Notes: a model not told the origin generated them from the sequence alone. A stretch of DNA of 63,621 nt, filler included, from Reclinomonas americana ATCC 50394 (GCA_048213135.1; 15 parts of 15 records of this genome joined end to end with filler, not necessarily neighbours in it), one strand, 5' to 3'; shown: positions 2,166-24,218, counted from the whole stretch's first letter. Numbers and translations are program-made.

Positions 2166-5023
2166 TCAAAGTTCCAACGTTAACGTAAACTGCCCGCACA
2201 CCTCGCGCACTGAGCGCATCACATCGAGCACCTCCTGCGCCGTTGGTCTCTTCGATTGCATGCTCATGCAGCGCATGCCGAGCTCGAACATTGGTTCGGC
2301 GATGCGCGGTGTCCACTCTGCTCCACCGTCCACCAACTCCATTACGCGCAACGAGGCAGTTGAGTCGTCCCACTCCACAGACCAGTCCACCACTGTGGCC
2401 ACGGGCTTGGCGGTGACCAGCTGCACCAGCACCACTCCCATGCTGTACACGTCGTGTTTGGGTTGTGGACGACGCACACGCATCGCCATAGGGTCCATGT
2501 AGTCCAGCGTGCCGGCGGCAGTCGTGGTCTGCGTAATGCGAGACAGTGAGAGAACGTGGAAGAGAGAAGGAGAAGGAACCCATCTAACCTTGCCTTCTGC
2601 AATCGACCGCGCGATGCCAAAGTCACCGAGACATGGCTCCAGTCGGTGATCGAGAAGCACATTGGAGGGCTTGATGTCGCGGTGTACCACCTCGTTCTGC
2701 GAGGAGGGGTGAGTGATGCGAGAAATAAGCACAAACACAACAGCGAAAATGGAGAAAGTGAGAGAGACTTGGAGACACAAGGAGGGAGGAGAGAAAAAGG
2801 GCAAGAACAGATACTCAGAGAGAGAGAGAGAACACGTGAGAGTGGGAGAGACAAGAACAGCGGAAGAGTGACGAGGAGAGAAGAGGGAGAGAGCGCAGAA
2901 CAGAGTGCTCGGGTGACAAAGAGAGGGTGAATGGGAGATGGAGGATGATATCAACATCGCAACACAAACCTTGTGCAAGAACACCACAGCCTCGGCCAGT
3001 CCGAGACCAATCTGCACACGCTGCACGACAGAGAGTGGTGCGCGACCGGCGCGGGGCAGCAGCAACAGATCCTCCAAGTTGGGAACTCTGTGTGCTCTTA
3101 CAGTGAGGAGATGAATGGAGAAGAGGGGGAAGGAGAGATGGACACGCACTGCAGGGCCTTGTATACGAGACAGCGTGCCTTGTCGTCGCCCACCGAGTAG
3201 CCGACAAGAGGCACAATGCGACGATCGCGCAGGCGACCGAGGGTGGCAACCTGCGAGGATGGGAAGGAAGGATGAGGAGAAAGAAGAAACAGGAGAGGGA
3301 GAGAGACACAGACCTCACTCTCAAATGACTCCACTGTCCACAGTGCCTCGGGATCGAGCACCTTGATGGCCACGTGCATCTCGCGGAGGATGGAGATATA
3401 CACGGCACCCTGGCCACCCTCGCCGACCTTGAGGCGTGGAGAGAATGTGTTGGTGGCGTGCACGATCTCGGGCCACTCGAAGCGCTGCACGGCGGTGTCG
3501 ACTGTAGAATGAGGTGGTGGGAAGTAAGAGATGAGTGAGAATGAAGGAGACAGAAACACGGAACAAAAGAACCAAAAAAGGAGGCAAGAGACTGACCTTG
3601 GGTGAGGAGGAGATCCTGTCGCAACTGAGAGATGAGTTGATTGTTTTCTTGCAGCTGCGCAGTGAGATCCTCCTTGTCACGCAGAGCCGCAGTTAGCTGG
3701 GCCTGAAGTTGGCCATGAGCTTGCTGCCATTCAATTACCGCTTGCTGCAGATGGGCGTTCTTCTGCTGCTCGCTGGCATGAGCTTGTTGCCACTGAGAGT
3801 TAACTTGGAGAAGCTGGGCATTGCCTTGTTGAAGCTCCGTGTTAGCTTGCTGCAGTTGGGCGCTCTTCTGCTGCTCCTCGGCCTTGCCATGCTGCAGCTC
3901 TGCATTGGCTCGTTGCAACTGGGAATTTTTCTGCAGCTCATCGGCATTGGCTCGCCGCAGCTGGGCGACGACGTCCTCGTATTCACGACGCTGCCGATCC
4001 CACTCCCGCAGCTGCTGCTCCCGCTCCTGCTGCGCAGCGGCAAGATCGCGCTGGAGTCGGGCGAGGAGTGCGTCTTTGTCGACGAGCTGGCGTGCCATGG
4101 CGGAATCGCCACCAGCCACCTGTACAGCAAGTCGATGTGGCACGAAAGTGCGATGGATCATGGAAAATATTCGAAAATTGAGTGGAACGAACAACAGATG
4201 CAAAGAGTGGGACTCTCTATCTCACCTGGCGAGCTGCTACTACCACAGAATGACACACAAAGACAGAGAAGCGTGGAGCGTGAGCACGAATGACATGAAT
4301 CACAAACACGCCAACAGATCATACCTGCAGGTGTAGATAATCGCGGCTGTGGCTGCAGTTGCTGTCGGCGTGAAGGCGCTTGTTGCCCCGCAGCAAGGTA
4401 ATCGAGCAAATCGGCCACTTGCTGCTTCTTGTTATCGCGCGCCAGCTGAGCCGCCGTCTTGCCCATCTTATTGACCACGGGAATTAGGTCGGGGAAGCGA
4501 GTGGCGAGGAGTCGCACAATTGCTTCGCGGTCATTCATGGCTGCAAAGTGTAGTGCAGTGGACTGTGCATAGAAGTCACCGTCATTGGTGACCGCCCGCA
4601 CCATCTCCGGCGGACATCGTCGCTCATCGTCAAGCAGCCATTCGACCACTGGCAGATGTCCGCCATAGGCAGCCGTCATCAGTGGCGTCGCGCCATAGTC
4701 TGTGACCAACTGAGCGAGTTGTGGCCCAATACCACTCTTCGCCCACAAATACTCCAACATAGGAAGATTGCCACGGTGCGCGGCACAATGAAAGGCCGAT
4801 TTGCCGTTCCCATCCATCTCCTCTCTCTTCAGCAAAGTCTGCGCGCCCTCACGCGCCACCAACTTGCGCAGTGCCTGCACATCGTCGTACAATGCCATCT
4901 CATATGCTGCCTTTCGAGGAGCGCTGTAAAGCCACGAACACATACAACACACATAAAGCAGAAGCGGAAGTGAGTGGCAGAGAGCACTGCCACCAACGAT
5001 GCAACCGTCATAACACACCTCAT
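2166..5023 (-). CDS. Ankyrin repeat / coiled-coil / IRAK-Pelle-RLK-type Ser/Thr kinase, copy 1 (9 exons)
   Basis: Exons: ATGAG, ANK exon (SAFHCAA, TPLMTAA, TALHFAA), 14-nt micro-exon 4226-4239, Q-rich coiled coil, then five kinase exons. Kinase motifs GEGGQG, VAIK, CLVY, HRDIKPSN, DFG, GTLDYMDP, DVYSMG. All introns GT-AG and frame-consistent. Confidence 0.9.
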
Positions 5024-5325
5024 TTTCCGACAGCGACTCTCCCTCTCTCTCTCACACACACACGCACTTCGTTTTCTTGCTTGTCCTCTTTCACTGCCGG
5101 ACAGCGCATGTTTGCGACGTCGTTCTGCTGCCGTGACTCGACGGAGAGAACCTCATGTAGCTTGCACACAATCGCCCCTTGCTCGTTGATACTGGACTTG
5201 AGCCAGTTGCATGTCGGCCGCAAGCGACAAAGCTCCCACTTGGAAAACCGCGCGCGCCGGCGCCAATATATTAACAGTATGCTGAATCGCACCCACTGCA
5301 TGCGCACTCGCCGAGGGGGCTCACT

Positions 5326-6213
5326 TCATTTCCGTTGCTCCAGCGCACACGCCTTTCGCGCTGCACGCATCACATCGAGCATTTCCTGCGCGCGGTCGGT
5401 CATGGAATTGGATCGATCAGCAGACGCAGAGTGCAGCATTCTCGTTGTCTCACCTGGCGTGTTGACACTGCATCTTTGCATGGGTAGCACACAAGCACAC
5501 ACACAGCGGAGTGTGAGCACGAGCTACATTCATCACACAACAAGGCTGCAGAACAATACACGCACCTGCAGGTGGAGGTGATCGCGGTTGTTGCCATTCT
5601 TTACTTGGCGGCGGTGGCTGCACAGCGAGGCGCTCCAGCAACTCGGCCACCTGCAACTCCTCCTCGTCGCGTGCCCACTGAGTCGCCGTCTTTCCAGCCT
5701 TGTTGACCATTGGCACAAGATCGGAGAAGCGCGTGGCGAGGAGTCGCACAATGGAATCGTGGCCTTCTCGGGCCGCATAATGCAGCGCAGTGGACTGCGG
5801 ATAGGCGGAAATATCATGGGTGATCGCCCACACCATCTCCGCTGGACATCGTCGCTCATCGGCGAGCAACCACTCCACCACTCGCAGGCGCCCATTGGAG
5901 GCAGCTGTCATCAGTGGCGTCCAGCCATAGTTGTTGACCAATTGTGCGAGTTGTGGCCCCACGCGACTCTCCTCCCACAAATACACCAACACAGAGAGAT
6001 GACCAGTGTTTGCGGCGTGGTGAAATGCCGAGCCGCTACCAGCACTCATCTCCTCACTCTCCAGTAGAGTGTGTGCGCCACCAACTCGCGCAGTGCCTTC
6101 ACATCGCCCTCATCTGCCATCTCGTATGCTTTCTTCCGACTGACGAAGGAGACACAACAATGCATGTGAGTGATGGAACAAGCAGGCAGTGCAACCATCA
6201 CAGCACACCTCAT
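5326..6213 (-). pseudogene. Truncated ankyrin-kinase paralog, copy 2
   Basis: A 10-nt deletion near 6075 relative to copy 5 frameshifts the ANK exon. After the micro-exon the sequence jumps straight to a degraded kinase C-terminus (AQEMLDVMRAARKAC, ~5340-5400); the coiled coil and most of the kinase are absent. Confidence 0.8.
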
Positions 6214-6244
6214 TCTTTGATCGTGAGACTGAAGGAACAACAGC

Positions 6245-6281
<37 letters not shown>

Positions 6282-6500
6282 GATCGTCACTCGTTTTTCC
6301 GCGTGTCCTGTTTCATGGTGGACAGGCGACGTCGTGTTGTTGCCAGAACTTGCGAGAGCTCGGAAGGAAGGCTTAATCACACGGTACACAATCCTAACAA
6401 GGTGATTTGCAAGCTGCGAGCAGGCAGCAACCGTTTTCACCCGATGATCGCCTGACGCTGAATCGCCAGGCAGTGCTCTCGTCGTTACAAAGCCTTTACG

Positions 6501-9438
6501 TCATAGTTCTATCGTAAACTGTCCACACGCCTCCCTCAGTGCGCGCATCACATCGAGCACCTCCTGCGCTGTCGGTCGCTTCGGTTGCATGCTCATGCAG
6601 CGCATGCCGAGTTCAAACACGGGTTCGGCGATGCGCGGTGTCCACTCTGCTCCACGATCCGCCAGTTCCATTGGACGCAGCGAGGCTGGCGAGTCGTCCC
6701 ACTCCACGGACCAGTCCACGACGGTGGCCACGGGCTTGCCAGTGACCAGCTGCGCCAGCACTACACCCATGCTGTACACATCGTTCTTGGGTTGCGGGCG
6801 ACGTACTCGCATCGCCAGTGGGTCCATGTAGTCGAGCGTGCCGGCGGCGGTCGTGGTCTGTGAGATGAGGTGAGAGGGAGTGGGAAAGAGAGAGAGAAGA
6901 GGGGAAAATCAACACACCTTGCCATCAGCAATAGACCGCGCAATGCCAAAGTCACCAAGACATGGCTCGTAGCGGTGATCGAGAAGCACATTGGAGGGCT
7001 TAATGTCGCGATGCACCACCTCATTCTGCGAGGAGAGGTAAGAGAGGCGAGAACAAAGCGTAAAACACAACAAGACGGGAAAGAGAGCAGTGGGAATCAG
7101 AGAACCAGGAGTGACAAGAAACGCACAGAGTGACGAAGACAGAAGAGACTAATGAGCAACGTAAAGAGAGCAAGGGTGACCAAGAGAGAGAATGAGAGAG
7201 ACAGAAGAGTGGTAAAGTAGAAGCACGAGAGACAAGATAAAGTAGAAGCACGAGAGACAAGAACATCAGTAGAGTGACATGGAGAGAGAGCAGAGCGATG
7301 AACGCAAAGGCATAGCGAGGGTGAATGCAAGATGGAGGATGGTTTCCACATCGCACAAACCTTGTGCAAGAACACCACAGCCTCGGCCAGTCCGAGACCA
7401 ATCTGCACACGCTGCACGACAGAGAGTGGTGTCTGACCGGCGCGCGGCAGCAGCAACAGATCCTCCAGGTTGGGAACTCTGTGTGCATTCACAATAAGAC
7501 GATGATGGAGAAAAAGAGAGAGAGGTGCGGGGCACGCACTGCAGAGCCTTATACACGAGACAGCGTGCCTTGTCGTCGCCCACCGAGTAGCCGACAAGGG
7601 GGACGATGCGACGGTCGCGCAGGCGTCCGAGAGTGGCCACCTGTGAGATGTGGAGACGGATGAGGAGAAAGAGAAAGAGAGAAGAAACAAGAGAGGGAGA
7701 GACACAGACCTCACTCTCAAACGACTCCATGGTCCACGGTGCTTCGGGATCGAGCACCTTGATGGCCACGTGCATCTCGCGGAGGAGAGTGATGAACACG
7801 GCACCTTGACCGCCCTCGCCGACCTTGAGGCGGGGAGAGAATGAGTTGGTGGCTTGCACGATCTCCGGCCACTCGAAGCGCTGCACGGCGGTGTCGACTG
7901 TGGAACGAGAGGGAAGGGAGTGAGAAATGGGTGAGAATGAAGGACTCAGACCACAGACCTTGGGTGAGGAGGAGATCCTGTCGCAGCTGAGATACGAGTT
8001 GATTGCTTGCTTGCAGCTGCGCGGTGAGATCGTCCTTGTCACGCAGAGCCGCAGTCAGCTGATCCTGCAGTTGGCCATGAGCTTGCTGCAATTGGCCATG
8101 AGCTTGCTGCCATTCAACATTGGCTTGTTGCAATTGAGCATTCCTCTGCTGCTCACTGGCGTGAGCTTGTTGCCATTCCAAGTTGGCTTGCTGCAATTGC
8201 GCGATTTGATGTTGTCCGTCAGCATGAGCTCGCTGCCATTCACCAACCGCCTGCTGCAGTTGGGCGTTCTTTTGTTGCTCCTCGACCTTGGCTTGCTCAA
8301 CCTCCGCGTTGATCCGCTGCAACTGGGCAATTTTCTGCAGCTCTTCGGCCTTGTCTCCTTCGAGCTGTGCACTGGCTTGTTGCAGTTGGGCGACAATGTC
8401 CTCGTGTTCACGCCGCTGTCGATCCCACTCCCGCTGCTGCTCCACTCGCTCCTGCTGTGCTGCCGCAAGATCGCGTTGGAGTTGCGCAAGGAGTGTGTCC
8501 TTGTCGGCGAGCTGGCGCGCGACGGTGGGATCATCAACAGCCGACTGCAATTTACGAGAGTGCGAGGGAGACACGGAATGGATGTGAGAAGTGAGGTTCA
8601 CGAGCAACAAGAAGCAGAGAGTGGCACTCTCCTATCTCACCTGGCGTGCTGGTACTGCATCATATTCGCCAGAAACGACACACAATGGCAAACCACAGGT
8701 GGTGGAGCGTAAGCACGAACTCAACTTGCCAACAGACATAATCGAGATCATACCTGCAGGAGGCGGGGGTCGCGGCTGCTGTTGTTGCTGTTGTTGCTGT
8801 TGTTGGGGCAGTGGTACTGGTTGTGCAGCAAGGCGGTCGAGTAATACGGCCACTTGCTGCTTGCCACAGTCACGTGCCCATTGAGCCGCCGTCTGGCCCT
8901 CCTTGTTGACCATGGGAATGAGGTCGGGGAAGCGAGTGGCGAGGAGTCGCATAATGGCTTCGTGGCCTCGATAGGCAGCCCAGTGCAGAGCAGTGGACTG
9001 TGAATTGTTGTCACGATCATTGGTGACCGCCCGCACCATCTCAGGCGGACATCGTCGCTCATCGGCAAGCAACCACTCCACCACTTGCAGTTGCCCACTG
9101 TAGGCAGCAATCATCAGTGGCGTCAAGCCATAGTCGTTGACCATTTGTGCGAGTTCTGGCCCGACGCCACTCTCTTCCCACAAATACTCCAACACAGAGA
9201 GATGGCCTCCGAGAGCGGCACAGAGAAATGCCGAGCCGCCACTCCCAGTCATCTCCTCGCTTTTGAGCAGTGTCTCTGCTCCCTCACGCGCCACCAACTC
9301 GCGCAGTGCCTCCTCGTCGCCCTTCTCCGCCATCTCCCATGCTTTCTTCCGACGAGCACTGCCACCAAAGAGGCAAAAGCAGAAGCGCGAGTGAGAGTAA
9401 GAGAGAATGCCACCTGACAACATCACAGCAAACCTCAT
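6501..9438 (-). CDS. Ankyrin repeat / coiled-coil / IRAK-Pelle-RLK-type kinase, copy 3
   Basis: Same 9-exon structure as copy 1, micro-exon 8641-8654, intact HRDIKPSN, DFG and GTLDYMDP, ends QFTIEL*. Confidence 0.9.
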
Positions 9439-9585
9439 ATTCTTTGAGAGAAAACAACAGCAGCGTGCTCTCTCTCTCGCACACACACACTCGCCCTCAC
9501 TCTCTCCCTCTCTCTGCCTCGCGCACTTCCTTTTTTTCTTTCCAGCCAACAACGACAGGACACCCTTCTTCCTATCCTCGTCTTT

Positions 9586-10469: not shown

Positions 10470-13236
10470 ATGAGGTGTGCTTTGTTGTTGTTGTCAGATA
10501 TGTGCGCTGCCTGACATTCTCGCACCTGTGGCTATCGTGTGCAGTGCACCTCCGTCACACGAGAGGAAGAAAGCATGGCAGATGGGGATTGCTGGCGATT
10601 TGGAGGCACTCCGCGAATTGGTGGCGCTTGAGGGCGCAGACATTCTGCTGCACAGTGAGGAGATGAGTGGCAGCATCTCGGCGTTTTCCACGGCCGCTTT
10701 CACGGGCCATCTCCCTGTGTTGGAGTATTTGTGGGAGGAGAGTGGAGTCGGGCCACAACTTGCACAGATGGTTGACGACAATGGCTGGACGGCACTTATG
10801 GTGGCATCTGATGGAGTAAGGCCGCAAGTGGTGGAGTGGCTGCTGGCCGATGAGCGACGGTGTCCGCCGGAGATGGTACGGGCGGTCAGTAAGGATGGTG
10901 ACTCTGCGCTGCATTACGCAGCAATGCACGGACACGAAGCTATTGTGCAACTCCTCGCCACGCGATTTCCCGACCTCATTCCCCTGGTCAATAAGAAGGG
11001 CAAGACGGCGGCGCAGTGGGCATGCGATCGAGGCAAGCAGCAAGTGGTTGAGTTGCTTGATCGTCTCGCTGCGCAGCCAGCGCCACTACTTCAACAACAA
11101 CAACAACAACAACAGCAACCACCGCGACCTCCTCCACCTGCAGGTTTAATCTCTTTGTTGGCATGTCGTGTGATTCGCCGTCTGTGCTCACACTTCACTG
11201 CATGCTTCTCCTTGTGTGTCACCTTTTGGAACACGAAGTGCCAGCACGCCAGGTGAAGCTGAGATGTGCCACTCTCTGTGTCAGTGTTGATCGTCCATCT
11301 CACTTGCTTCATGCGTTCCATGTTTCTTTCGCGTCGCATTATCTTCTGTGCAGGCGGCTGTTGATAATCCCGCCACATTGGCACTCCAGCTCGCCGAAAA
11401 GGACGCGCTCCTCACCCAACTCCAGCGTGATCTTACCGCAGCGCAGCACGAGCGAGTGGAGCAGCAGCGACAGTGGGACCGGCAGCGGCGAGAACTCGAA
11501 GACATTGTCGGTCAACTGCAGCAAGCCAACACGGCGCTGCAGCAAGGCAAGGCCGAGGAGCAGCAGAAGAATGCCCAACTGCAGCGAGCTGTCACGGAAT
11601 GGCAGCAAGCCCACGGCCAACTGCAGGATCAGCTGACTGCGGCTCTGCGTGACAAGGACGATCTTACCGCACTCGTCTCCCAGCTGCGTCAAGATCTCCT
11701 CCTCGCCCAAGGTCAGTCTCTTGTTCTCTCAGTTTCTTGATCAGTCTCGATGTTCTCTGACCTTCACTCTCACTCATTTCTCACTTTCCCATGACACACC
11801 TTCTACAGTCGACACCGCCGTGCAGCGCTTCGAGTGGCCCGAGATCATGCAAGCCACCGACTCATTCTCACCCCGTCTCAAGGTCGGCGAGGGTGGTCAG
11901 GGTGCCGTCTTCATCACCTTGCTTCGGGAGATGCATGTGGCCATCAAGGTGCTCGACCCCGATGCACCGTGGACGATGGAGTCGTTTGAGAGTGAGGTCT
12001 GTGTCTTTCTCCATCTCCTTTCCTTCTCCCTCTCTCTTTCTCTTTCTCCTCATCCGTCTCCACATCTCACAGGTGGCCACCCTCGGACGCCTGCGCGACC
12101 GTCGTATCGTGCCTCTTGTCGGCTACTCGGTGGGCGACGACAAGGCACGCTGTCTCGTGTACAAGGCTCTGCAGTGCGTGTCCATCTCTCTACCCTCTTC
12201 TCTTTCTCAATCATCATCTCACTGTGATAGCACACAGAGTTCCCAACCTGGAGGATCTATTGCTGCTGCCACGCGCCGGTCGTGCACCGCTCACCGTCGT
12301 GCAGCGTGTGCAAATTGGTCTCGGACTGGCCGAGGCTGTGGTGTTCTTGCACAAGGTATACTCGATGTCTCACTTCTTTTTCTCTTCCGTTAAAGGCACA
12401 ATTGCCCTCCTTGTGTTTGCACTCTTTCTCTCTTCTTTCCTTCTTATTTCTTATGTTGTTCTTTTCTCTTCTGTCTGTCGTGTTCTCCGCTTCCTCACTC
12501 GTCGCTCTCTTTCTCTCTCTCACACACTCATTCTTCCTGTTGCTAACCCTTGTTCTGTTATGTTGCGCTCATTACCTCTTCTCTCCTTGTCTATTTTTCG
12601 CTGTTGTTGTCTCTCAGTGTCTCTCTCATTCTCTCTTTCATCTTCTCCTTACTGTTATGTATGCTTGCTTGTTCCTCGCCTCACTCACGTCTCCTCGCAG
12701 AATAGTGTGGTGCACCGCGACATCAAGCCCGCCAACGTGCTCCTCGATCACCGTTTCGAGCCATGTCTCGGTGACTTTGGCATTGCGCGGTTGATTGCAG
12801 ATGGCAAGGTTTGTTGTGCTCCCTTCTCTCCCCTCTCTCTCCTCACGCCTGCTCACATTCTGTCATCTCGTAGACGACCACCGCCGCCGGCACGCTGGAC
12901 TACATGGACCCACTGGCGATGCGTGTGCGCCGTCCACATCCGGAGCACGACGTGTACAGCGTGGGCATTGTGCTGGTGCAGCTGGTCGCCGCCAAACCCG
13001 TGGCCACGGTGGTGGATTGGTCCGCGGCATGGGAACGGTCTGCTTCCTCGCTGCGCGTGATGGATTTGGTCGATCGTGGAGCTGAGTGGACTCAGCGCAT
13101 CGCCGAACCGATGTTCGAGCTCGGCATGCGGTGCATGAGCCTCCGACGCGATATCGATCGACCGACGGCGCAGGAGGTGCTCGACGTGATGCGTGCAGTG
13201 CGGGAGGCGTGTGGGCAGTTTACGATGGAACTTTGA
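10470..13236 (+). CDS. Ankyrin repeat / coiled-coil / IRAK-Pelle-RLK-type kinase, copy 4 (inverted orientation)
   Basis: Same exon structure, micro-exon 11239-11252, shorter coiled coil. Kinase has HRDIKPAN, DFG and GTLDYMDP, ends QFTMEL*. Confidence 0.9.
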
Positions 13237-14888: not shown

Positions 14889-14919
<31 letters not shown>

Positions 14920-17900
14920 CTCTCTCACTCACACGAATTCGCGCACTCTGTGAGAGAGATTGTTTGAGTGCGTGTGAGACAAGTTTGTGAGTGTCATTCT
15001 GTGAATGCGCTTGTGTGTGTATGAACGCGATTATGACTTCTGTCGTGTGTTTTCTCCTTGTCGAGAGTATGTGAGACGAGTGTGTCTGCGAGAGACGGAA
15101 GCACTCAGCTGACCGACCACTCATTCATCCTCGATGACGTCCTCTTTTACTCACTCTGTCACACCCGATTCTTACTTGTCCCTCACTGCCCTTCCCTTCC
15201 CCTGTCTCCTCCCTCCCCGTCTTCCCTTCCCTTTGCCGCTCACCCTCACCACCCACCACAGCGGCGACAGCGCCGTCGGCAAGTCAAAGCTCGTCGAGCG
15301 CTTCCTCATGGACAACTAGTTGCGCCTCTCTCTTTCTCTCTCTCCTGTCCTTGACCTCCTCGCCTCCTCGCGCCTCACTCTCTCCACCGCAGTCAACCAC
15401 AACGGCAATCCACATACGCGCTCACTTTGTTCCAGTACGAGGCCGACATTGATGGAGAGAAAGTACCTGTTGGTGAGCGCGAATGTCCATTCTCCTCTTG
15501 CTTGGAGAGTGTTCCTCTCTTGTTCCCCTTGTGTTCCCCTTGTGTTCCCCTTGTGTCCCCTTGTGTTCCCTTGTGTTCTCCAGTGTGTTCCCCTTGTGTC
15601 CCCTTGTGTTCCCTTGTGTTCTCCTGCGTGNNNNNNNNNNNNNNNNNNNNNNNNNNNNNNNNNNNNNNNNNNNNTTAATTAATTAANNNNNNNNNNNNNN
15701 NNNNNNNNNNNNNNNNNNNNNNNNNNNNNNCCCCTTGTGTTCCCCTTGTGTTCCCCTTGTGTTCCTCTCTTGTTCTCCCTGTATTCCCCTCGTGTTCCTC
15801 TTTTATTTCACCTCGTGTTCCCCTTGTGTTCTCCTTGTGTTCCCCTTGTATCCCCTTGTGTTCCCCTTACAACTTCTGCAATCTTTCTCCAGCGCTTCCC
15901 TTTCTCCCCTTTCCCCGTCATTCTGCTTCCCTCTTCACTCCCCCATGTCTTCCCTCTCCTTCCTCCCTCCTCCCTTTCCCCTTCTCCCTTCTCCCCTTCC
16001 CCCTTCCCCTCATACCCTTCTCACCCTTTCCCCCTTTGCCCCTTCCCCTCCCTCCAGGCATCTGGGACACCGCAGGACAAGAGCGCTTCAACAGCCTCCA
16101 CCCATCCTACTATCACCGCGCCAACGCCTGCATCCTGGTACGCCACCGCCACCCTTCCCTTTCCCCTGCCGCACCCCCTTGCCTCACCACTCCCCCTGTG
16201 CAGGTATTCGACACCACAAGAAAGGTTACCTACAAGAACCTGGACCGGTGGTACGCGGAGCTGCAAGAGTACCGGAAAGCGATTCCGTGTCTCGTGGTGG
16301 CCAATAAGATTGACGGTGAGGGAGGGGATGAAAATCAGAAGGAGATTTTCTCTCATTCCTCTGCTCTGTTCATCTCTGTGTTCGTTTTTTTCAACTACAG
16401 CCGTTCTCACTTCTCCATCTCTCGACTCGCCCTTTCTCGATCTGCTCCATTTTTCTCCTGCACTGCGCAGACGCATGGCTACCTTCTCTCTCGTTTCCCG
16501 CCGTTTGCTTTCCCTCTGTCTCTCTCTCTCTCTCTTTCCCATTTCTCTCCTCTCGCTCTGTCTCTCTCTCATGTCTCTCCTCTCGCTCTGTCTCTCTCTC
16601 ATGTCTCTCCTCTCGCTCTGTCTCTGTTTCTTTCTCTCTCTCCCTTTTCTCTCCCCTCTCTTTCTCTCCTATTTCTCTCCCCTCTCTTTCTCTCCCTTTC
16701 TCTCCTCTCTCTCTCTTTCTTTCTTTCTCTCGTTTTTGCTATTTCTCCCATCTTGCTCTGTCTCTCCTCTCGCTCTGTCTTCGTTCTCTCTCCTCTCTCA
16801 CCCCATTTCTTTCCACTCGCTCTGTCTCTCTTTCTTTCTTTCTTTCTCTCTCACTCTGTGCTCTCGTTTCTGCTAGCTGTGGTACATTTCTTTCTGCTTG
16901 TCGCTCTTCCACTCTCATGTCGTTTAGCTATCTACACTGCCTCTCGTCTCACTCGCCTCTTGCCACCCGCTCTCATTCCTTTTGTTATCCTGGCTGTTTT
17001 TCAATCCTCTCCTCGCTGTGAGTATCCTTCCAGTAATCTTGCATTCTCTCTTTCCCTCTTTCACACTCTGTCTGTCTGCTTTCATTGCACACTCATCGCC
17101 CAAGTTTTCACCTGATCCTCTCCAATCTTCTCTTTTGTCAATTCTCTGCCTCTCCCTCTATAATTCTTCCTCTTGCCATGCATCTCGCTTCCTCTTTTCT
17201 GACTTACTGCATTCATCGCGTGATGATTAGTCTCCAGTTAGGAGCCTTTCATTGTGTAACGAGAGACAGATGGACATACGAGTCATTTCGTTCCCTCAAT
17301 TCCTATTGTCCACTACCCTCGTTATTTGTGTGTTTCTTAGAGAGGGACTCACTGCACCCCAGTGTGTGAGTGGAACAATGTCACCATGTTCCCTCACTTC
17401 ATCAATCGCCTACATCTTTCTCGTTTCTCATGTCTTCTCTTTTCCTTTCCTCTTCCCTCTTTCCCGCCGCTTTCCCTCTCTCACCCCTTCCCCTCTCCCT
17501 CCCCCTTTCCTTCACCTTGTCTTCCCTGTACTATTATGTTCCCTCTCTTCTTTGTATCAGCCGTCCTGCATCCCCAGCCGTTCTCAATTCTCCTCTCTCG
17601 TCACCGCACTTCATTATTGTGATGTCCTTGGCTCTCTCTCTCAAAACTTCTCCCATTTTCCCCTTTTCCTGTCTCCCCTTCCCCCCTTCCCCCTTCCTCA
17701 CCTCCTTCCCCTCCCCCCTCCCCCCAGTCGACTACAGCGTCACCAACAAATCCTTCAACTTCGCCACTAAGCGCAACCTCCCCTTCTACTTTTGCTCGGC
17801 CAGCGACGGCACCAACGTCGTCAAGGTTCTTTCGACTTCCCCTTGCTCACCTTCTGCCCATCCTCCTCCCTTACCTTAATACCTGCAGCTCTTCCATGAC

Positions 17901-18349: not shown

Positions 18350-18388
<39 letters not shown>

Positions 18389-20117
18389 NNNNNNNNNNNN
18401 NNNNNNNNNNNNNNNNNNNNNNNNNNNNNNNNTTAATTAATTAANNNNNNNNNNNNNNNNNNNNNNNNNNNNNNNNNNNNNNNNNNNNGAGAGAGAGAGA
18501 GAGAGACAGACAGAGAGAGAGAGAGAGCGCGCGCCAGCGACCTATCGCCCAGGAGCGACAGATCTGCAAGTTGTCTTTCTCGGATTCAATCATGCGGACT
18601 ACCTAGCTTTGTGTTTGCCAGCGGCGCGAGGCTCTTTTCCTATTACTTTCTGAGCGCCTAGCTCTCTCTATCTCTCTCTCTTTATGTGTGTGTGGGTGTA
18701 AGTTTTGTCCTGCTTCTCTTTGTCTCCATCTCTCTGAGAGAGTGACTGAGAGTGAAGAACAGAGGGAGACAGAGAGGGACGAGGGAGATTGAGAGTGGTG
18801 AGCATAGTGAGACTGAGAAAGACAGCCAGAAGGAGATTGAGAGGGAAGAGCACAGGGAGATTGAGAGTGGTGAGCATAGTAAGACTGAGAGAGAGATAGA
18901 GAGAGAATGAGAGGGATGAGCAGAGGGAGACAGAGAGTGGTGAGCTGATTGAGACAGAGATAGACGAGCAGAGGGAGTCTGAGGGAGAGGGGGACAGAGA
19001 GACGAGCAGTGACTCTCTCTGCTTGTCTCTCTCAGTATCCCTCTTCAGTTTTCTCCCAGTCTTCCCCGCCTCGTGTATCACTTTCTCTCTGTCTTGACTC
19101 TCTCTGTTTCCATCAGCTCCTCTCCCTCAGCCTCCCGCTGCTCTCCACTCTCTTCATCTCTCTATCTCTGCCCCCCTCTGCTCGTCACTCTCTGTTCATC
19201 TCCCTATCTCTCCCTTTGCTCAACTCTCTCAATCTTCGTCTGCTCGTCAGTTTCAGTCTCTCTCAGAGACGAGCAGAGGAAGACTGAGAGAGCGCAGAGC
19301 AGAGGGAGAGAGAGAGACGACCAGGGAGATAAAGAAAGAAGCAGGGAGAGAACAAGAGAGACGAGCAGGGAGAAAAAGAAAGACGAGCAGGGAGATAGAG
19401 AGAGACGAGCAGAGAGAGACTGAGCAAGACAACCAGAAGGAGATTGAGAGAAGAGAAGCGGGATATTGAGAGAGAAGAGAAGCGGGAGATTGAGAGGAAC
19501 AAGCAGAGGGAGGCTGAAAGACATGAGCGGGGGGAGACAGAGAGGGACGAGCAGAGGGAGAAAAAGAAAGACGAGCAGGGGGATAGAGAGAGACGAGCCG
19601 AGGGAGAACGAGAGAGGCGAGCAGAGGGAGACTGAGAAAGACAACAAGAAAAAGACTGAGAGGGAAGAGCAGAGGGAGATTGAGAGAACCAGCAGAAAAA
19701 GACTGAGAGGGACTATCAAATGGAACTTGAGAGTAATGAGCAGAGAGAGAGATAGACTGAGAGACATGCGCAGGGGGCGACTGAGAGAGCTGCCTTCCCC
19801 TGCCAGCGTCACTTCTTGTCCCCTCTCTTTCCTCTCCTCCCCCCTCTCCCTTCCCTGATTGAGAGGGACGAGCAAAATTGAGATTGAGAGTGATGAGCAG
19901 AGGGAGACTGACAGAGCTGCCTTCCCCTGCCAGCGTCACTTAATTTCCCCTCTCTCTCCCTTCCCCCGATTGAGAGTGATGAGCAGGGAGAGAGACTGCG
20001 AGAAATGAGCAGAGGGAGACCGACAGAGCTGCCTTCCCCTGCCCTCTCTCCTTTCCTCTCCCCCTCTCTCCCTTCCCCAATTCCCCTTTCCCCTTTCCAC
20101 CCTTCTCCTTGTGGCTC

Positions 20118-20518
20118 ACCTTCATCACCCCACCCTCCACCACCACCACCCCCGCATCATCACCATCACCTCCTTCACCCTCACCCACCGCCGGCAACGT
20201 GTGCGACGCCACCGGCGCTCTACTCCACTGCGCCTCAAACTCCGCTCGCGCACGCTCCCTCCGCTCCATGCGCTCCTCCGCCACCCACTCGTCGCCGCGC
20301 ACCGTGCAATTGTCGCGCTGCCGTTGCACGCGTCTCTGCACGCGCTCGCGCAGCCGCTCACGCATGCGCTCTCGTTTGGAGTACTCGCAGGCCAGGCAGA
20401 AGCAGCAGCAGGTGGGGCCGCAGCCGTGGGCGTTGATAAAGGCACTAAAGTGGGAAGGGGGAAGCGGGAGGGCGTAAGGGAAAGGGAGAGGGGGAGGGTG
20501 AGAGGGAGAGAGTGGGAA

Positions 20519-20565
<47 letters not shown>

Positions 20566-21068
20566 GAAGGAGAGGAGGAGGAGAGAGGAGGAGGAGAGAG
20601 AGAGACGACGAGGACGGAGAGAGAAGAAGAAGAGAGAGAGAGAGAGTAGGTGGTGGAGGAGGGAGGGAGAGGAGGNNNNNNNNNNNNNNNNNNNNNNNNN
20701 NNNNNNNNNNNNNNNNNNNTTAATTAATTAANNNNNNNNNNNNNNNNNNNNNNNNNNNNNNNNNNNNNNNNNNNNTCACTCACTCACTCAAACTCTCACT
20801 CACTCTCTCACTCACTCACTCTCTCTCTCCCTCTCAACTCACCGTCAACCGTGATCGCACATGCGGCGTGCACATTGGGAAGCACAGATGACACCAGCAA
20901 CTGCACACAAACAAACACACATGAGCAACTCACACACACACACACACACACACTCTCTCTTTGTTGTCTCTCACACCTCTCCTCATCATTACAATGGTTC
21001 CACAGACGAAAGGCGCTGCCGGAGACTCGTGCATAGTCGTCGTCTTCGTCGCCATCGTAGAAGCTCAT
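20118..21068 (-). CDS. Cysteine-rich protein, possibly PLAC8-like; partial
   Basis: Spliced MSFYDGDEDDDY...LWNHCNDEE|SCWCHLCFPMCTPH..., then after the gap HGCGPTCCCFCLACEYSKRE. The Cys spacing resembles PLAC8. The 3' end is unresolved. Confidence 0.4.
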
Positions 21069-21395
21069 CAGAGAATGAGAGAGAGACAGACAGCGCAGCG
21101 GACAACTTGTCACAAATCAATTGTCAGATGACTGACTTCACTTTGTCATGACTGCAAAGATGGCTGTTGTTGTTGCAACTAATTGCAAACAAGCAATAGC
21201 TGTCTTGTTGGCCGTACAACAAGACTGCGTGAATGACTTGGAGTGAAGTAGACTTGCTCAAGTTTATCGAGGGCAGGCTCCCGATACCATATTACATCAA
21301 CTCCTGCATTCGGAATTCAAGACGAGAAGCGAGTTGCGACAAACGGTTGTGCATGCTTCTGTCCATTGTTCTCGCGATTGCTTCACTTGCTTTCT

Positions 21396-24218
21396 TCAAA
21401 GTTCCAGCGTATACTGGCCACACGCATCGCGCAGCGCGCGCATCACATCAAGCACCTCCTGTGCCGTTGGTCGTCTCGATTGCAAACTCATGCACCGCAT
21501 GCCGAGTTCGAACATGGGTTCGGCGATGCGCGGCGTCCACTCTGCTCCTCCGTCCACATGCTCCATGACACGCAACGAGGCTGGCGAGTCGTCCCACTCC
21601 ACGGACCAATCCACCACTGTGGCCACAGGCTTGCCGGTGACCAGCTGCAACAGCACAACACCGACGCTGTACACATCGTGTTTGGGTTGTGGACGGCGCA
21701 CGCGCATGGCCAGCGGGTCCATGTAGTCCAGGGTGCCGGCGGCGGTCGTGGACTGGGAGATGAGAGAAGTGAGACAGGGGGAATTGAGAGAGAAGGACTG
21801 AATGGAAACAAACCTTGCCATCGGCAATCGACCGTGCAATGCCAAAGTCACCGAGACATGGCTCCAGTCGGTGATCGAGAAGCACGTTGGAGGGCTTGAT
21901 GTCGCGGTGTACCACCTCGTTCTGCGAGGAGGGGTGAGTGATGCGAGAAATAAGCACAAACACAACAGCGAAAAAGGAGAAAGTGAGAGAGACTTGGAGA
22001 GACACGAACAGCACGAGAGAGACAAGGAGAGAGAGGAGAGAAAAGGGCAAGCACAGAGAGCAAGGGCTATTTAGAGAGAGAACACGTGAGACAGGGAGAG
22101 ACAAGAACAGCGAAAGAGTGACGAGGAGAGAAGAGGAAGAGAGTGCAGAACAGAGAGCTCGGGTGACGGAGAAGGTGAATGGGAGATGGAGGATGGCATC
22201 CGCATCGCACAAACCTTGTGCAGGAATGACACAGCCTCGGCCAGGCCGAGACCAATTTGCACACGCTGCACGACGGAGAGTGGTGCACGACCGGCGCGTG
22301 GCAGCAGCAACAGATCCTCCAGGTTGGGAACTCTGCTTGTTTACAGTGAGCACAAGATGATGTATGAGAAGGAAAGAGACACGAACACGCACTGCAGGGC
22401 CTTGTACACGAGACAGCGTGCCTTGTCGTCGCCCACCGAGTAGCCGACAAGAGGCACAATGCGACGATCACGCAGGCGTCCGAGAGTGGCCACCTGGGAG
22501 ATGGGAAGAAGGATGAGGAGAGAGAGAAGAAACAGGAGAATGGAGAGACACAGACCTCACTCTCAAACGATTCCATGGTCCACGGTGCATCGGGATCGAG
22601 CACCTTGATGGCCACGTGCATCTCGCGAAGCAGAGTAATGAAGACGGCACCCTGGCCACCCTCGCCGACCTTGAGGCGTGGGGAGAATGAGTTGGTGGCT
22701 TGTACGATCTCGGGCCACTCGAAGCGCTGCACGGCGGTGTCGACTGTGGAGAGTGGGTAATGGGAAGAGAGAGATGGGGTGAGAATGAAGGACATGAACA
22801 CCGATATAAAGAAAGAAAGAGGGCAAGACGCACCTTGGGTGAGGAGGAGATCCTGTCGCAGCTGAGAGACGAGTTGATCCTTTTCTTGCAGCTGCGTGGT
22901 GAGGTTGTCCTTGTCACGCAGAGCCGAGGTCAGCTGAGCCTGCAGTTGGCCATGAACTTGCTGCCATTCCGCGTTGGCTTGTTGCAATTGAGCACTCCTC
23001 TGCTGCTCACTGGCATGAGCTTGCTGCGATTCACTGACCGCCTGCTGCAATTGGGCGACCCTGTGCTGGTCCTCAACCTTGGCTCGCTCAAGCTCCGCGT
23101 TGATTCGTTGCAACTGGGCATTTTTCTGCAGCTCCCCGTCCATCCCTCGCTCAAGCTCTGCATTGGCTTGCTGCAGCTGAGCGACGATGTCTTCGTGTTC
23201 TCGTCGCTGCCGGTCCCACTCCCGCTGCTGCTCCTCTCGCTCCTGCTGCGCTACGGCAAAATCGCGCTGGAGTTGCGCAAGAAGTGCGTCCTTGTCGGCG
23301 AGCTGGCGTGCGACGGTGGGATCATCACCAACCGACTGTAATTTACGAGAGTGTGAGGGAGACACGGAACAGATGTGAGAAGTGAGTTTCACGAGAAACA
23401 AGAAGCAGAGAGTGGCAGCACTCTGTCTCACCTGGCGTGCTGGTGCTGCATATTCGCCAGGAACGACACACAATGACAAACCACAGATGGTGGAGCGTGA
23501 GCACGAACACAACATGCCAACACACATACAGAGGTCATACCTGCTGGAGGCGGGGATCGCGCCTGCTGTTGTTGTTGTTGGCGTAGTGGTGCTGGTTGCG
23601 CGGCGAGGCGGTCGAGCAACTCGGCCACTTGCTGCTTGCCTTCGTCGCGAGCAAACTGAGCCGCTGTCTTGCCCTCGCCATTGATCACTGGTATGAGGTC
23701 GGGGAAGCGAGTGGCGAGGAGTTGCACAATGGCTTCGTGGCCTTGCCAGGCAGCCCAATGCAGTGCAGTGGATTGTGGATATTCGGCACGGCCATTGGAG
23801 ACCGCCCGCACCATCTCCGGCGGACATCGTCGCTCATCGGCAAGCAACCACTCCACCACTTGCAGATGCCCATAGGCGGCTGCCACCATCAGTGGCGTCC
23901 CGCCACCGTCGTCGACCATTTGTGCGAGTTGTGGCCCCACGCCACTCTCCTCCCACAAATACTCCAACACAGAGAGATGGCCATAGGCAGCGGCACAGTG
24001 AAATGCCGAGCTGCCATACCCATCCATCTCCTCTCTCTTCAGCAGAGTGTGTGCGCCCTCACGCGCCACCAACTCGCGCAGTGCCTTCACATCGCCCTCA
24101 TCTGCCATCTCCCATGCTTTCTTCCGAGGAGCACTGCCACCAAAGAGGCAAAAAGCAGAAGCGCGAGTGAGAGCGAGAGAGAGAGAACGCCACCTGACAA
24201 CATCACAGCAAACCTCAT
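21396..24218 (-). CDS. Ankyrin repeat / coiled-coil / IRAK-Pelle-RLK-type kinase, copy 5
   Basis: Same 9-exon structure, micro-exon 23432-23445, intact kinase motifs, ends QYTLEL*. Confidence 0.9.

What the first reader, a model, noticed from the sequence alone, without database searches (positions are those of the whole stretch)
2166..24218. Cluster of cytoplasmic ankyrin / coiled-coil / IRAK-Pelle-RLK kinases: candidate protist immune receptors
Seen: four intact paralogs and one pseudogene in 22 kb, with no signal peptide or transmembrane helix. The kinase begins QRFEWPEI..ATN.FS..LKVGEGGQGAV, has a Tyr gatekeeper (CLVY), GTLDYMDP in place of APE, and DVYS.GVVL. Knowledge: the F..xEI..AT..F pre-kinase motif, Tyr gatekeeper and GT.xY.xP are hallmarks of animal IRAK/Pelle and plant RLK/RLCK kinases, which act in innate immunity. 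Inference: sensor (ANK), oligomerising stalk and signalling kinase in one chain. I do not recognise this architecture from a protist.
Basis: partly seen in the sequence, partly recalled or inferred. Interest (0 to 1): 0.8.

Follow-up and report, generated by a model that had tools for sequence, protein, structure and literature searches.

The report
Ankyrin, coiled-coil, IRAK/RLK-type kinase gene cluster
An unidentified single-celled eukaryote carries a cluster of duplicated genes for soluble signalling enzymes that join an ankyrin binding head and a pairing stalk to a kinase of the family used in plant and animal innate immunity, but nothing yet shows what they sense.

Summary
Four intact nine-exon genes (617-693 aa, all introns GT-AG) and one broken copy lie at the stated coordinates. 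Each encodes about four ankyrin repeats, a 119-195 aa Q/A/L/E-rich helix and a complete Ser/Thr kinase. There is no signal peptide or membrane helix.

The kinase is of the RLK/Pelle/IRAK kind. Single-exon searches of solved structures return almost only IRAK4/IRAK1 and plant receptor-like kinases. Among 1.84 billion representative proteins the best whole-domain matches are plant U-box kinases (RLCK-IXb/PUB type), at only 33-36% identity. No close relative was found anywhere.

The layout is not wholly new. Plant RLCK-IXb proteins have a head domain, a long helix, the kinase and a U-box. One protein of the green alga Chlorokybus has ankyrin repeats, a helical region, the kinase and a U-box. The genes here lack the U-box.

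A structure model supports a parallel dimer of the stalk. All domains are under purifying selection, and the paralogues differ mainly at ankyrin binding positions.

A sixth gene nearby joins the same head and stalk to a different kinase.

Verdict: a new variant of a known kind, of moderate interest.

The parts
2166..5023 (-). G1, intact gene, 9 exons, 672 aa
   Evidence: Script gene model, open frame from ATG to stop, all introns GT-AG.
4325..4923 (-). G1 exon 2: ankyrin repeats and Q/P-rich linker
   Evidence: It is 71.5% identical over 200 aa to the G4 ankyrin exon (tblastn), which scores Ank_2 3.6e-20.
4226..4239 (-). G1 14-nt microexon (encodes VAARQ together with the preceding G)
   Evidence: A block conserved in the five aligned copies (G1-G4 and the pseudogene), flanked by AG and GTGA. 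It is needed to keep the frame between exon 2 and exon 4.
3597..4119 (-). G1 exon 4: coiled-coil stalk (174 aa)
   Evidence: The G4 counterpart is modelled as a parallel dimer.
2166..3501 (-). G1 exons 5-9: kinase domain (292 aa) and stop codon
   Evidence: All catalytic motifs are present.
5300..6400 (-). Pseudogene: frameshifted ankyrin exon, microexon, then an internal deletion joined to the last ~60 nt of the kinase
   Evidence: blastn to G4 is 73.6% over 898 nt. Two out-of-frame tblastn segments. Alignment. Ank_2 7.8e-20 on 5567-6109.
6501..9438 (-). G2, intact gene, 9 exons, 693 aa (ankyrin 8754-9358, microexon 8641-8654, coiled coil 7959-8544, kinase exons 6501-7897)
10470..13236 (+). 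G3, intact gene, 9 exons, 617 aa (ankyrin 10545-11143, microexon 11239-11252, shorter coiled coil 11354-11711, kinase exons 11809-13236)
   Evidence: The coiled coil is shortened by deletions relative to G2 and G4.
21396..24218 (-). G4, intact gene, 9 exons, 661 aa
23541..24133 (-). G4 exon 2: ankyrin repeats and linker
   Evidence: Ank_2 3.6e-20 and Ank 1.7e-19.
23432..23445 (-). G4 14-nt microexon
22834..23335 (-). G4 exon 4: coiled-coil stalk (167 aa)
   Evidence: Composition: Q 36, A 21, L 21 and E 16 of 167 residues. The homodimer model scores 0.48 against a best control of 0.00.
21396..22743 (-). G4 exons 5-9: kinase domain (290 aa) and stop codon
   Evidence: Pkinase on exon 8 (2.9e-9) and exon 9 (1.4e-7). 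Solved-structure hits.
25473..31550 (-). G5, a related sixth gene outside the finding. It has the same head (ankyrin exon about 30921-31466, coiled coil about 29747-30067), then an unassigned middle part and a different kinase (27133-27507, 25747-26097, 25473-25790), interrupted by the scaffold spacer at 26770-26869.
   Evidence: tblastn with G4: 72% over 182 aa and 52% over 114 aa. Frames. Pkinase 7.9e-13, 1.1e-5 and 8.6e-4.

Best explanation
These genes are a tandemly duplicated family of soluble, dimeric signalling kinases. Each protein has an N-terminal head of about four ankyrin repeats and a long parallel coiled coil that holds two chains together. At the C-terminus is a catalytically complete RD-type Ser/Thr kinase of the RLK/Pelle/IRAK family, closest to the plant RLCK-IXb (U-box kinase) branch but without a U-box.

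The likely mechanism is that of a receptor-like cytoplasmic kinase or IRAK. The ankyrin head recruits the dimer to a partner or ligand, and the paralogues differ in which one. The stalk places the two kinase domains side by side. Activation then occurs by trans-autophosphorylation of the short Ser/Thr-bearing activation loop (DFGIARSIADGK-STT-AAGT), followed by phosphorylation of downstream substrates.

Shown here: the gene structures, the domains, the family affinity, the intact catalytic motifs, purifying selection and the variation at ankyrin binding positions. Supported only by a model: dimerisation. Inferred: activity, the activation mechanism and the partners. The biological process served, whether immunity or something else, is unknown.
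For: Gene models: four open nine-exon genes.

Domains: Pfam Ank_2 3.6e-20 and Pkinase.

Family, solved structures:
- The C-lobe exon gives 35 of 35 hits at E<=1e-3 to IRAK4 or plant RLK/RLCK.
- The profile of the four paralogues gives 170 hits at E<=1, of which 60 are shown. The first 47 are IRAK4 or plant RLK/RLCK (best 1.1e-5). The first other kinase is Aurora A at 6.8e-3. Overall 49 of the 60 are RLK/IRAK and 11 are Aurora A, and none is RAF, MLK, RIPK, LRRK or STKR.
- The N-lobe exon gives 16 hits at E<=1. Twelve are named RLK or IRAK1, and two are named only 'Protein kinase' (2qkw_B and 3hgk_A, which I recall to be Pto). One is a designed repeat protein and one is YabT.
- Exon 6 gives 4 of 4 hits to BRI1.

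Family, protein library: the search of 1.84 billion representatives with the exon-9 profile found 581 hits at <=1e-3, 17 at <=1e-10 and 0 at <=1e-30. I rescored all 150 listed hits with a profile of the spliced whole kinase domain. Of the 11 best single domains (129-147 bits), 7 carry a Pfam U-box. The source names include 'U-box domain-containing protein 57-like' and 'U-box domain-containing protein kinase family protein'. blastp identity is 33-36% over 293-342 aa.

Tree: 89 rows, made of G1-G4 and 85 of the 150 hits. G1-G4 form one clade (SH-aLRT 100) inside a 27-row side (SH-aLRT 92). That side also holds the U-box kinase clade (12 rows, 95), a 7-row clade with Vitrella and Platyproteum, Gefionella kinases and an Artemia protein whose cluster members are named 'IRAK4-like' or 'JAK2-like'. 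The other 62 rows include all 11 with WAK, malectin, CRK, PP2, LRR_6 or EF-hand accessory domains.

Activity: the Gly loop, VAIK Lys, the Glu aligned with the family's conserved N-lobe Glu (95% of relatives), HRD, the catalytic-loop Lys and Asn, DFG and the C-lobe Asp and Arg are kept in all four.

Selection: dN/dS is 0.10-0.20 for the kinase, 0.19-0.34 for the stalk and 0.24-0.56 for the ankyrin head, with dS of 0.26-0.71.

Ankyrin head: 17 of 20 canonical binding-position columns vary between paralogues, against 32 of 84 framework columns (one-sided Fisher p = 1.5e-4). The set of binding positions is recalled from designed ankyrin proteins.

Stalk: two copies of the 167-aa exon scored 0.48 against a best of 3 controls of 0.00.
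- The mark was reached by 21 of 30 proteins solved as pairs of one chain and 0 of 23 solved as single chains.
- On eukaryotes it was reached by 17 of 29 pairs, but by only 1 of the 7 with no older solved relative, and by 0 of 30 single chains.
- The runs agree in at least 96% of contacts, and partner pLDDT is at least 87.
- Contacts are in register (residue i with residue i) along residues 8-167.
- My alignment was not used by the tool.

Shared layout: plant RLCK-IXb proteins also have a long helix directly before the kinase (PMC12803775, passages).
Against: There is no transcript evidence, so the 14-nt microexon that joins head and stalk is inferred only from conservation and reading frame.

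Identity to the nearest known kinases is low (33-36%). The family sits on a long stem (1.29 changes per column), its position inside the 27-row side is unresolved, and that side's support (92) is below the tool's 95 mark.

The tree holds only proteins picked by similarity to the query and no named TKL outgroups. It therefore cannot show that the family lies inside RLK/Pelle rather than beside it.

Several residues typical of the relatives are changed in all four genes: H to D, hinge E to K, G to P, W to V, and the K before DFG to C. The Glu of the APE/DPE motif is Leu or Met. Activity could therefore be unusual or reduced.

One characterised plant relative, SlRLCK-IXb-1, showed no kinase activity in vitro (PMC12803775).

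Coiled coils resemble many solved complexes, so the dimer score may reflect likeness rather than this protein's behaviour, as the tool warns.

Variation at ankyrin binding positions is expected for any ankyrin family, because those positions are the least constrained.
Confidence: 0.7

Rival explanations
1. This is the first reader's reading: the proteins are innate immune sensors. The ankyrin head binds a pathogen-derived or danger ligand, and oligomerisation through the stalk switches on the IRAK-like kinase. The cluster expands and diversifies under host-parasite conflict.
For: The kinase family is the one used in animal (IRAK, Pelle) and plant (RLK, RLCK) immunity. Plant RLCK-IXb relatives regulate immune responses (PMC12803775, passages).

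The locus shows tandem duplication with a pseudogene. The stalk varies in length, from 119 to 195 aa. Variation is concentrated at ankyrin binding positions (17 of 20 against 32 of 84 columns). Modules have been shuffled: G5 reuses the same head and stalk with a different kinase.
Against: No test of immunity was possible.

The ankyrin head is under purifying selection overall (dN/dS 0.24-0.56), and four sequences cannot show positive selection at single sites.

No accompanying immune-type domain was found. Pfam on the head shows ankyrin repeats only, and the middle part of G5 matches nothing.

RLK/Pelle kinases also serve development and growth, and tandem kinase clusters are common. TKL kinases are the ones most often clustered in Phytophthora (PMC3019232).
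Confidence: 0.15
2. The ankyrin part and the coiled-coil/kinase part are two neighbouring genes rather than one chain, and the microexon is an artefact of my model.
For: There is no RNA evidence. A 14-nt exon is unusually small. The ankyrin frame can run on for about 40 codons past the proposed donor in G4.
Against: The 14-nt block with its AG and GTGA flanks is the best-conserved stretch of the interval in all five aligned copies. A similar peptide (AAPVRQ) is seen in G5.

With the microexon, the frame is restored in all four genes. The donor CAG|GT at the end of the ankyrin exon is conserved.

The coiled-coil exon has no conserved start codon. In G4 the first Met lies about 64 residues into the exon.

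Head and stalk travel together in six copies.
Confidence: 0.1
3. The proteins are scaffolds with weak or no catalytic activity (pseudokinase-like), working through binding alone.
For: The Glu of the APE/DPE motif is replaced by Leu or Met, and several family-typical residues differ. A plant RLCK-IXb relative showed no kinase activity in vitro (PMC12803775). The five Phytophthora infestans IRAK-class proteins are predicted to be inactive (PMC3019232).
Against: Every residue needed for ATP binding and phosphotransfer is kept in all four paralogues. The kinase domain is the most strongly constrained part (dN/dS 0.10-0.20).
Confidence: 0.1

Closest known systems
Plant RLCK-IXb / PUB class VI U-box kinases (for example SlRLCK-IXb-1 and AtPUB33; hits P0130, P0087, P0082, P0124, P0077, P0106)
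   Same: These are the best whole-kinase-domain matches among the 150 library hits (129-147 bits, 35-36% identity). They share the pre-kinase motif, VAIKVL, and GT..Y.DP in place of APE. A long helix sits directly upstream of the kinase (PMC12803775). They are soluble proteins with an N-terminal accessory domain.
   Different: The plant proteins end in a U-box E3 ligase domain and often start with a USP domain. The genes here stop about 10 residues after the kinase, and no U-box is found in the window (tblastn). They start with ankyrin repeats. In the tree they lie outside the U-box kinase clade.
Chlorokybus atmophyticus protein EP00898_P003753 (P0132, 923 aa)
   Same: It is the only one of the 150 hits with ankyrin repeats. 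Its order is ankyrin, a helical region, then the kinase (Pfam). Its pre-kinase peptide 'LRQFEWEELKIATGNF' resembles 'VQRFEWPEIVQATNSF'. It is the nearest row to G1-G4 by path length in the tree.
   Different: It has a C-terminal U-box, and a weak MLKL_N-like four-helix region (4.2e-5, below Pfam's cut-off) instead of a Q-rich coiled coil. Its ankyrin repeats give no BLAST match to those here. Kinase identity is only 33%.
Animal IRAK4 / IRAK1 / Pelle
   Same: These are the top solved-structure matches for the C-lobe (IRAK4) and among the top for the N-lobe (IRAK1). They are soluble kinases. They have a Tyr gatekeeper and are activated by proximity in an oligomer; both of these points are my knowledge and were not tested here.
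   Different: IRAK and Pelle proteins have an N-terminal death domain. Here the head is ankyrin repeats followed by a coiled coil.
IRAK-class TKL kinases of oomycetes (five in Phytophthora infestans)
   Same: They are RLK/Pelle/IRAK-like kinases in a protist, forming a clade separate from other TKL subfamilies (PMC3019232, passages).
   Different: Four of the five have a membrane helix and all are predicted to be inactive (the same paper). The genes here are soluble and keep all catalytic residues. I made no sequence comparison with them.
Other ankyrin-kinase fusions (RIPK4/ANKK1, ILK, TNNI3K, RNase L; all recalled, none tested here)
   Same: Ankyrin repeats and a kinase or kinase-like domain in one soluble chain. 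In RNase L the ankyrin repeats are the ligand sensor.
   Different: Those kinase domains belong to other branches. None of these appeared among the solved-structure hits listed for the kinase exons (60 of 170 shown).

Membership tests
RLK/Pelle/IRAK kinase family (TKL group) | The kinase-domain sequence is closer to RLK/Pelle/IRAK members than to other kinases. | tested here: met
   Solved-structure searches with single exons: 35 of 35 hits, the first 47 of 60 shown, 14 of 16 and 4 of 4. The best library hits are plant RLK/RLCK-type kinases.
RLK/Pelle/IRAK kinase family (TKL group) | Forms one clade with RLK/Pelle/IRAK, to the exclusion of RAF, MLK, RIPK, LRRK, STKR and tyrosine kinases, in a tree with named references. 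| not tested
   The spliced domain could not be sent to the search tools and no named TKL reference set was at hand. The tree holds only query-selected hits.
RLK/Pelle/IRAK kinase family (TKL group) | Pre-kinase motif F.x.E[IL]..AT..F and a Tyr gatekeeper. That these are hallmarks is recalled. | tested here: met
   'RFEWPEIVQATNSFS' aligns with 'EFTYQELAKATNNFS' of LYK3. 'CLVYK' aligns with 'LLVYE' of BRI1.
IRAK / Pelle proper | An N-terminal death domain. | tested here: not met
   Pfam on the N-terminal exon finds only ankyrin families. The rest of the pre-kinase region is a Q/A/L/E-rich helix.
Plant receptor-like kinase (RLK) | A signal peptide, an extracellular domain and a single membrane helix. 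| tested here: not met
   There is no hydrophobic segment outside the kinase core and the N-terminus is charged.
RLCK-IXb / U-box kinase | A C-terminal U-box domain. | tested here: not met
   The stop codon lies about 10 residues after the kinase in all four genes. tblastn with three U-box regions finds nothing better than E = 0.028 in the window.
RLCK-IXb / U-box kinase | A long helix or coiled coil directly upstream of the kinase. | tested here: met
   A 119-195 aa helix-forming exon abuts the kinase and is modelled as a parallel dimer. The feature in plants is described in PMC12803775.
RLCK-IXb / U-box kinase | The kinase falls inside the U-box kinase clade. | tested here: not met
   G1-G4 lie outside the 12-row U-box kinase clade (SH-aLRT 95) but on the same 27-row side (92).
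Active eukaryotic protein kinase | Gly loop, VAIK Lys, the N-lobe (alpha-C) Glu, HRD Asp, catalytic Asn and DFG Asp. | tested here: met
   All are present in G1-G4. The APE Glu is Leu or Met. Enzyme activity itself cannot be tested with these tools.
Ankyrin repeat proteins | Tandem 33-residue ankyrin repeats. | tested here: met
   Ank_2 3.6e-20, Ank 1.7e-19 and Ank_4 1.6e-17. Four repeat registers were aligned.

The most novel reading that the evidence does not exclude
The cluster is part of a protist innate-immune or conflict system built on an ancient soluble branch of the IRAK/RLK family. Interchangeable ankyrin heads act as sensors. A dimeric stalk pre-assembles the kinase pair. The same head-and-stalk cassette is plugged onto different effector kinases, as in G5. 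That would place IRAK-like immune signalling, without death domains or Toll-like receptors, outside animals and plants, and would give a model for the soluble ancestor of plant RLCK-IX and animal IRAK kinases.
Probability: 0.12. Interest if true: 0.75.

Novelty: new variant of a known kind. Interest (0 to 1): 0.4.

Why it matters
The RLK/Pelle/IRAK family underlies pattern-triggered immunity in plants and Toll/IL-1 signalling in animals, and its history outside those two kingdoms is thinly sampled.

This locus adds a divergent and apparently active soluble branch from an organism with no close relative in the libraries searched. In 1.84 billion representative proteins there was no hit below 1e-30. 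Its layout mirrors plant RLCK-IXb proteins (head, long helix, kinase) but with an ankyrin head and no ubiquitin-ligase tail.

If the organism lies outside the green lineage, this would support an old origin for the 'helix plus RLCK-IX-type kinase' unit. If it is a green alga, it is simply one more RLCK variant.

The six-copy locus offers a natural series for testing how ankyrin heads and stalk length set kinase specificity. It contains a pseudogene, stalks of varied length and a head-stalk cassette reused with another kinase.

Tried and rejected
- Word-based homologue search with the last exon, longer proteins: no hit.
- Whole genome of the window: none is held, so no genome-wide copy count.
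- Sequencing runs, kind rna, for 21300-24300: none was listed.
- One search was my own frame error (the exon was read one frame off). It gave 0 hits and should be ignored; I repeated it correctly.
- Ankyrin-exon search, longer proteins: 188 hits at <=1e-5 and 120 listed, all generic ankyrin proteins at <=41% identity and no orthologue.
- Attempt to place the organism with the BtpA-like ORF at 880-1725: five hits at 32-41% identity, none carrying an organism name. The lineage stays unknown.
- Metagenome scan with the exon-9 profile: five loci, only 41-46% identity over about 40 residues. I did not follow these up.
- My recalled idea that the middle part of G5 is HEPN-like: no Pfam hit even at E<=10 and no Atlas hit. 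Unsupported.
- Attempt to label ankyrin-kinase proteins as outgroups: the kinase of P0185 is PknB-like, and the P0158 list was filled with ankyrin hits. Neither was used in a tree.
Searches gave 0 papers, because the phrase did not match 'RLK/Pelle'. Searches gave the papers I cite.
- Four reviews and primary papers on RLK/Pelle evolution (PMC4657737, PMC3415837, PMC166995, PMC2675737) are not held. What they say about protist members is not covered here. I recall that one of them reports a Plasmodium member, while PMC3019232 states that none was detected in P. falciparum.
- I opened no supplementary files. Figure S2 of PMC12803775 and Additional file 1 of PMC3019232 may bear on the subfamily comparisons.
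- Script errors were corrected.
- Pfam was run at E<=1e-12 to shorten the output, so weaker U-box or ankyrin hits among those 51 proteins could have been missed. A motif check over all 150 found ankyrin motifs only in P0132. Pfam covered 88 of the 150 hits in all.

Full report
**What is there**

The window is eukaryotic DNA of about 55% G+C with short introns. It is a scaffold rather than one contig. Fourteen spacers of 44 N + TTAATTAATTAA + 44 N divide it.

Pairwise blastn showed four long paralogous stretches, 74-84% identical to each other including introns, and a fifth shorter one. I aligned the copies, located conserved peptide blocks in each frame, and built gene models by script.

Each of the four long copies gives an uninterrupted coding sequence of nine exons with GT-AG introns of 60-345 nt:

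| Gene | Strand | Coordinates | Length |
|---|---|---|---|
| G1 | minus | 5023-2166 | 672 aa |
| G2 | minus | 9438-6501 | 693 aa |
| G3 | plus | 10470-13236 | 617 aa |
| G4 | minus | 24218-21396 | 661 aa |

These limits match the finding's 2166-24218 exactly.

The exons are laid out as follows:
- Exon 1 is only 'ATGAG'.
- Exon 2 holds the ankyrin repeats and a Q/P-rich linker.
- Exon 3 is a 14-nt microexon.
- Exon 4 is a Q/A/L/E-rich helix.
- Exons 5-9 hold the kinase.

The microexon is an inference. It is the best-conserved block between exons 2 and 4 in all five aligned copies. It is flanked by AG and GTGA. It is needed to bring the phase-1 donor of exon 2 into register with the phase-0 acceptor of exon 4.

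The fifth copy (about 5300-6400) is dead. It has a frameshift in the ankyrin exon, and a deletion runs from just after the microexon to the last ~60 nt of the kinase.

**Domains and integrity**

Pfam finds Ank_2 (3.6e-20) on exon 2 and Pkinase on exons 8 and 9. No hydrophobic stretch lies outside the kinase core, and the N-terminus is charged.

All four keep the Gly loop (GEGGQG), VAIK, the Glu aligned with the family's conserved N-lobe Glu, HRDIKP.N, DFG, the C-lobe Asp and the RP Arg. They are RD kinases with a short activation loop that carries S/T residues.

Departures from relatives are fixed in all four:
- the Glu of APE/DPE is Leu or Met;
- H to D;
- hinge E to K;
- G to P;
- W to V;
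- the K before DFG to C.

Nei-Gojobori estimates show purifying selection everywhere. dN/dS is 0.10-0.20 for the kinase, 0.19-0.34 for the stalk and 0.24-0.56 for the ankyrin head. dS is 0.26-0.71, so the duplicates are not recent.

Between paralogues, 17 of 20 columns at canonical ankyrin binding positions vary, against 32 of 84 framework columns (Fisher p = 1.5e-4). The position set is recalled from designed ankyrin proteins. Gap columns in repeat 3 count as variable.

**Which kinase family**

Against all solved structures:
- The C-lobe exon gave 35 hits at E<=1e-3. All are IRAK4 or plant RLK/RLCK.
- The profile of the four paralogues gave 170 hits at E<=1, of which 60 are shown. The first 47 are IRAK4 or plant RLK/RLCK. 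The first other kinase is Aurora A at 6.8e-3. No RAF, MLK, RIPK, LRRK or STKR appears in the 60.
- The N-lobe exon gave 16 hits at E<=1. Fourteen are LysM-RLKs, IRAK1, CERK1, a lectin RLK, BRI1, BIK1 and two chains named only 'Protein kinase' (Pto by my recall). The other two are a designed repeat protein and YabT.
- Exon 6 hit only BRI1 and puts the Tyr of CLVY on BRI1's 'LLVYE' Tyr.

A full HMMER scan of 1.84 billion representatives with the exon-9 profile found 581 proteins at <=1e-3 but none at <=1e-30. The best was 7.7e-17. Neither this genome's proteins nor any close relative are in that library.

I rescored the 150 listed hits in the Python box with a profile of the spliced whole domain. 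This put kinase-plus-U-box proteins at the top: 7 of the 11 best single domains carry a U-box (Pfam). They come from land plants and from the alga Chlorokybus (names), at 33-36% identity.

Pfam on 88 of the 150 hits shows that most of the rest are plant RLKs, with WAK, malectin, CRK, PP2 or LRR accessory domains. Many are fused multi-kinase gene models.

The tree has 89 rows: G1-G4 and the 85 hits with at least 220 profile positions, so 65 hits were left out. It was built with IQ-TREE quick, LG+C20. G1-G4 form one clade on a long stem, inside a 27-row side (SH-aLRT 92). That side also holds:
- the U-box kinase clade (95);
- a clade with Vitrella brassicaformis and Platyproteum vivax (100);
- Gefionella okellyi kinases;
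- an Artemia protein whose cluster members are named IRAK4-like or JAK2-like (names).

The position inside that side is unresolved. The tree has no named TKL outgroups, so it shows affinity, not proven membership.

**Layout compared with known proteins**

Plant RLCK-IXb proteins are described as USP, a flexible region, a long 'Smc' helix, the kinase and a PUB domain, and as regulators of immune responses (PMC12803775, passages read).

The Chlorokybus protein P0132 has Ank_2, a weak MLKL_N-like region, the kinase and a U-box. It is the only one of the 150 hits with ankyrin motifs.

The genes here share the 'head, helix, kinase' order but have no U-box. The stop codon follows the kinase directly and tblastn finds no U-box in the window. 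They also have no death domain. They therefore fail the domain definitions of IRAK/Pelle proper, of RLKs and of U-box kinases, while matching the wider kinase family.

IRAK-class kinases in a protist are not new. Five are reported in Phytophthora infestans, mostly membrane-bound and predicted to be inactive (PMC3019232, passages).

**The stalk**

The exon-4 product has almost no Pro or Gly and a heptad-like spacing of hydrophobic residues. Its length varies from 119 to 195 aa through gain or loss of 'AQLQQAN.EWQQAH'-like units.

Two copies of the G4 stalk were modelled:
- The score was 0.48, against 0.00 for the best of 3 controls.
- The mark was reached by 21 of 30 proteins solved as pairs of one chain and 0 of 23 solved as single chains.
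- On eukaryotes it was reached by 17 of 29 pairs, but by only 1 of the 7 with no older solved relative, and by 0 of 30 single chains.
- The runs agree in at least 96% of contacts, and pLDDT is at least 87.
- Contacts are in register along residues 8-167, that is, a parallel dimer.

Coiled coils are abundant among solved structures. The pass shows likeness to such dimers and supports pairing, but does not prove it.

**How it most likely works**

The most likely form is a constitutive or regulated parallel dimer, with ankyrin heads that recruit it to paralogue-specific partners. The two RD kinase domains would activate by trans-autophosphorylation. This is the logic of RLCKs and IRAKs (established knowledge for IRAK4), with an ankyrin head in place of the death or USP domain.

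The steps shown, modelled and inferred are set out under Best explanation.

**The immune reading**

In favour:
- the kinase family;
- the immune roles of plant RLCK-IXb proteins;
- tandem expansion with a pseudogene;
- variation at binding positions;
- stalk length variation;
- a sixth gene, G5 (about 25473-31550, minus strand), that reuses the same head and stalk with an unassigned middle region and a different, APE-type kinase.

Against:
- no functional or expression evidence;
- dN/dS below 1 in the head;
- no other immune-type domain;
- the family also has many non-immune roles.

I put this reading at about 0.15.

**Limits**

The organism is unknown. The window also carries a small-GTPase gene that I recall as RABL2-like, and a MYCBPAP-like exon. 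I recall both to be linked to cilia, which suggests a flagellated cell.

A search with a BtpA-like ORF gave only hits without an organism name, at 32-41% identity. Whether the organism is a green alga or lies outside the plant lineage decides much of the interest.

**Verdict**

The kinase-family reading is supported. The immune reading is open. The layout is a new variant of a known kind, with interest of about 0.4.

Noticed in passing
window 9939-10038, 15631-15730, 18389-18488, 20676-20775, 24623-24722, 26770-26869 and eight more: Spacers of 44 N + TTAATTAATTAA + 44 N join separate contigs. Contig ends lie in simple repeats. The window is thus a scaffold, and distances between G2, G3, G4 and G5 are unknown.
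   Followed up: partly
window 25473-31550 (-): G5 has an ankyrin head (72% identical to G4's) and a coiled coil like the cluster genes. These are followed by a ~300-400 aa middle part with no Pfam or Atlas match and a different kinase (HRDLKPQ, DFG, ...APE). The gene runs across a scaffold spacer. My recalled resemblance of the middle part to HEPN domains was not supported.
   Followed up: partly
window 15950-16330 (+): Exons of a small GTPase. Pfam gives Ras 1.9e-5 and Roc 9.2e-6 on 16180-16330. The peptide 'GIWDTAGQERF...VFDTTRKVTYKNLDRWYAELQEYR' looks RABL2-like by my recall. It lies between the kinase genes.
   Followed up: no
window 38712-39212 (-): An exon matching the MYCBP-associated protein family (PF14646, 2.6e-8).
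   Followed up: no
window 45787-46947 (+) and 47907-49379 (+): Two tandem paralogous single-exon ORFs (387 and 491 aa as read from stop to stop) with a hydrophobic N-terminus and no Pfam match.
   Followed up: no
window 57729-59611 (-): Exons of a WD40 repeat protein (WD40 6.7e-12, 3.4e-7 and 1.6e-5).
   Followed up: no
window 877-1725 (-): A single-exon ORF of 282 aa with a weak BtpA-family match (0.0064, below the cut-off). Its only relatives found are five proteins without an organism name, at 32-41% identity.
   Followed up: partly
window 14102-15124, 16300-17100, 18600-19900, 25000-26800: Long CT/GA and related microsatellite-like tracts that read as SLSL, THTH or ERER in all frames. They fill introns and intergenic DNA and coincide with contig ends.
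   Followed up: no
P0003-P0152 (library hits): Many of the best library hits are proteins with two to six tandem kinase domains plus malectin, WAK or EGF parts. They look like fused gene models of plant RLK clusters. Their summed scores inflate their rank in a whole-protein list.
   Followed up: partly
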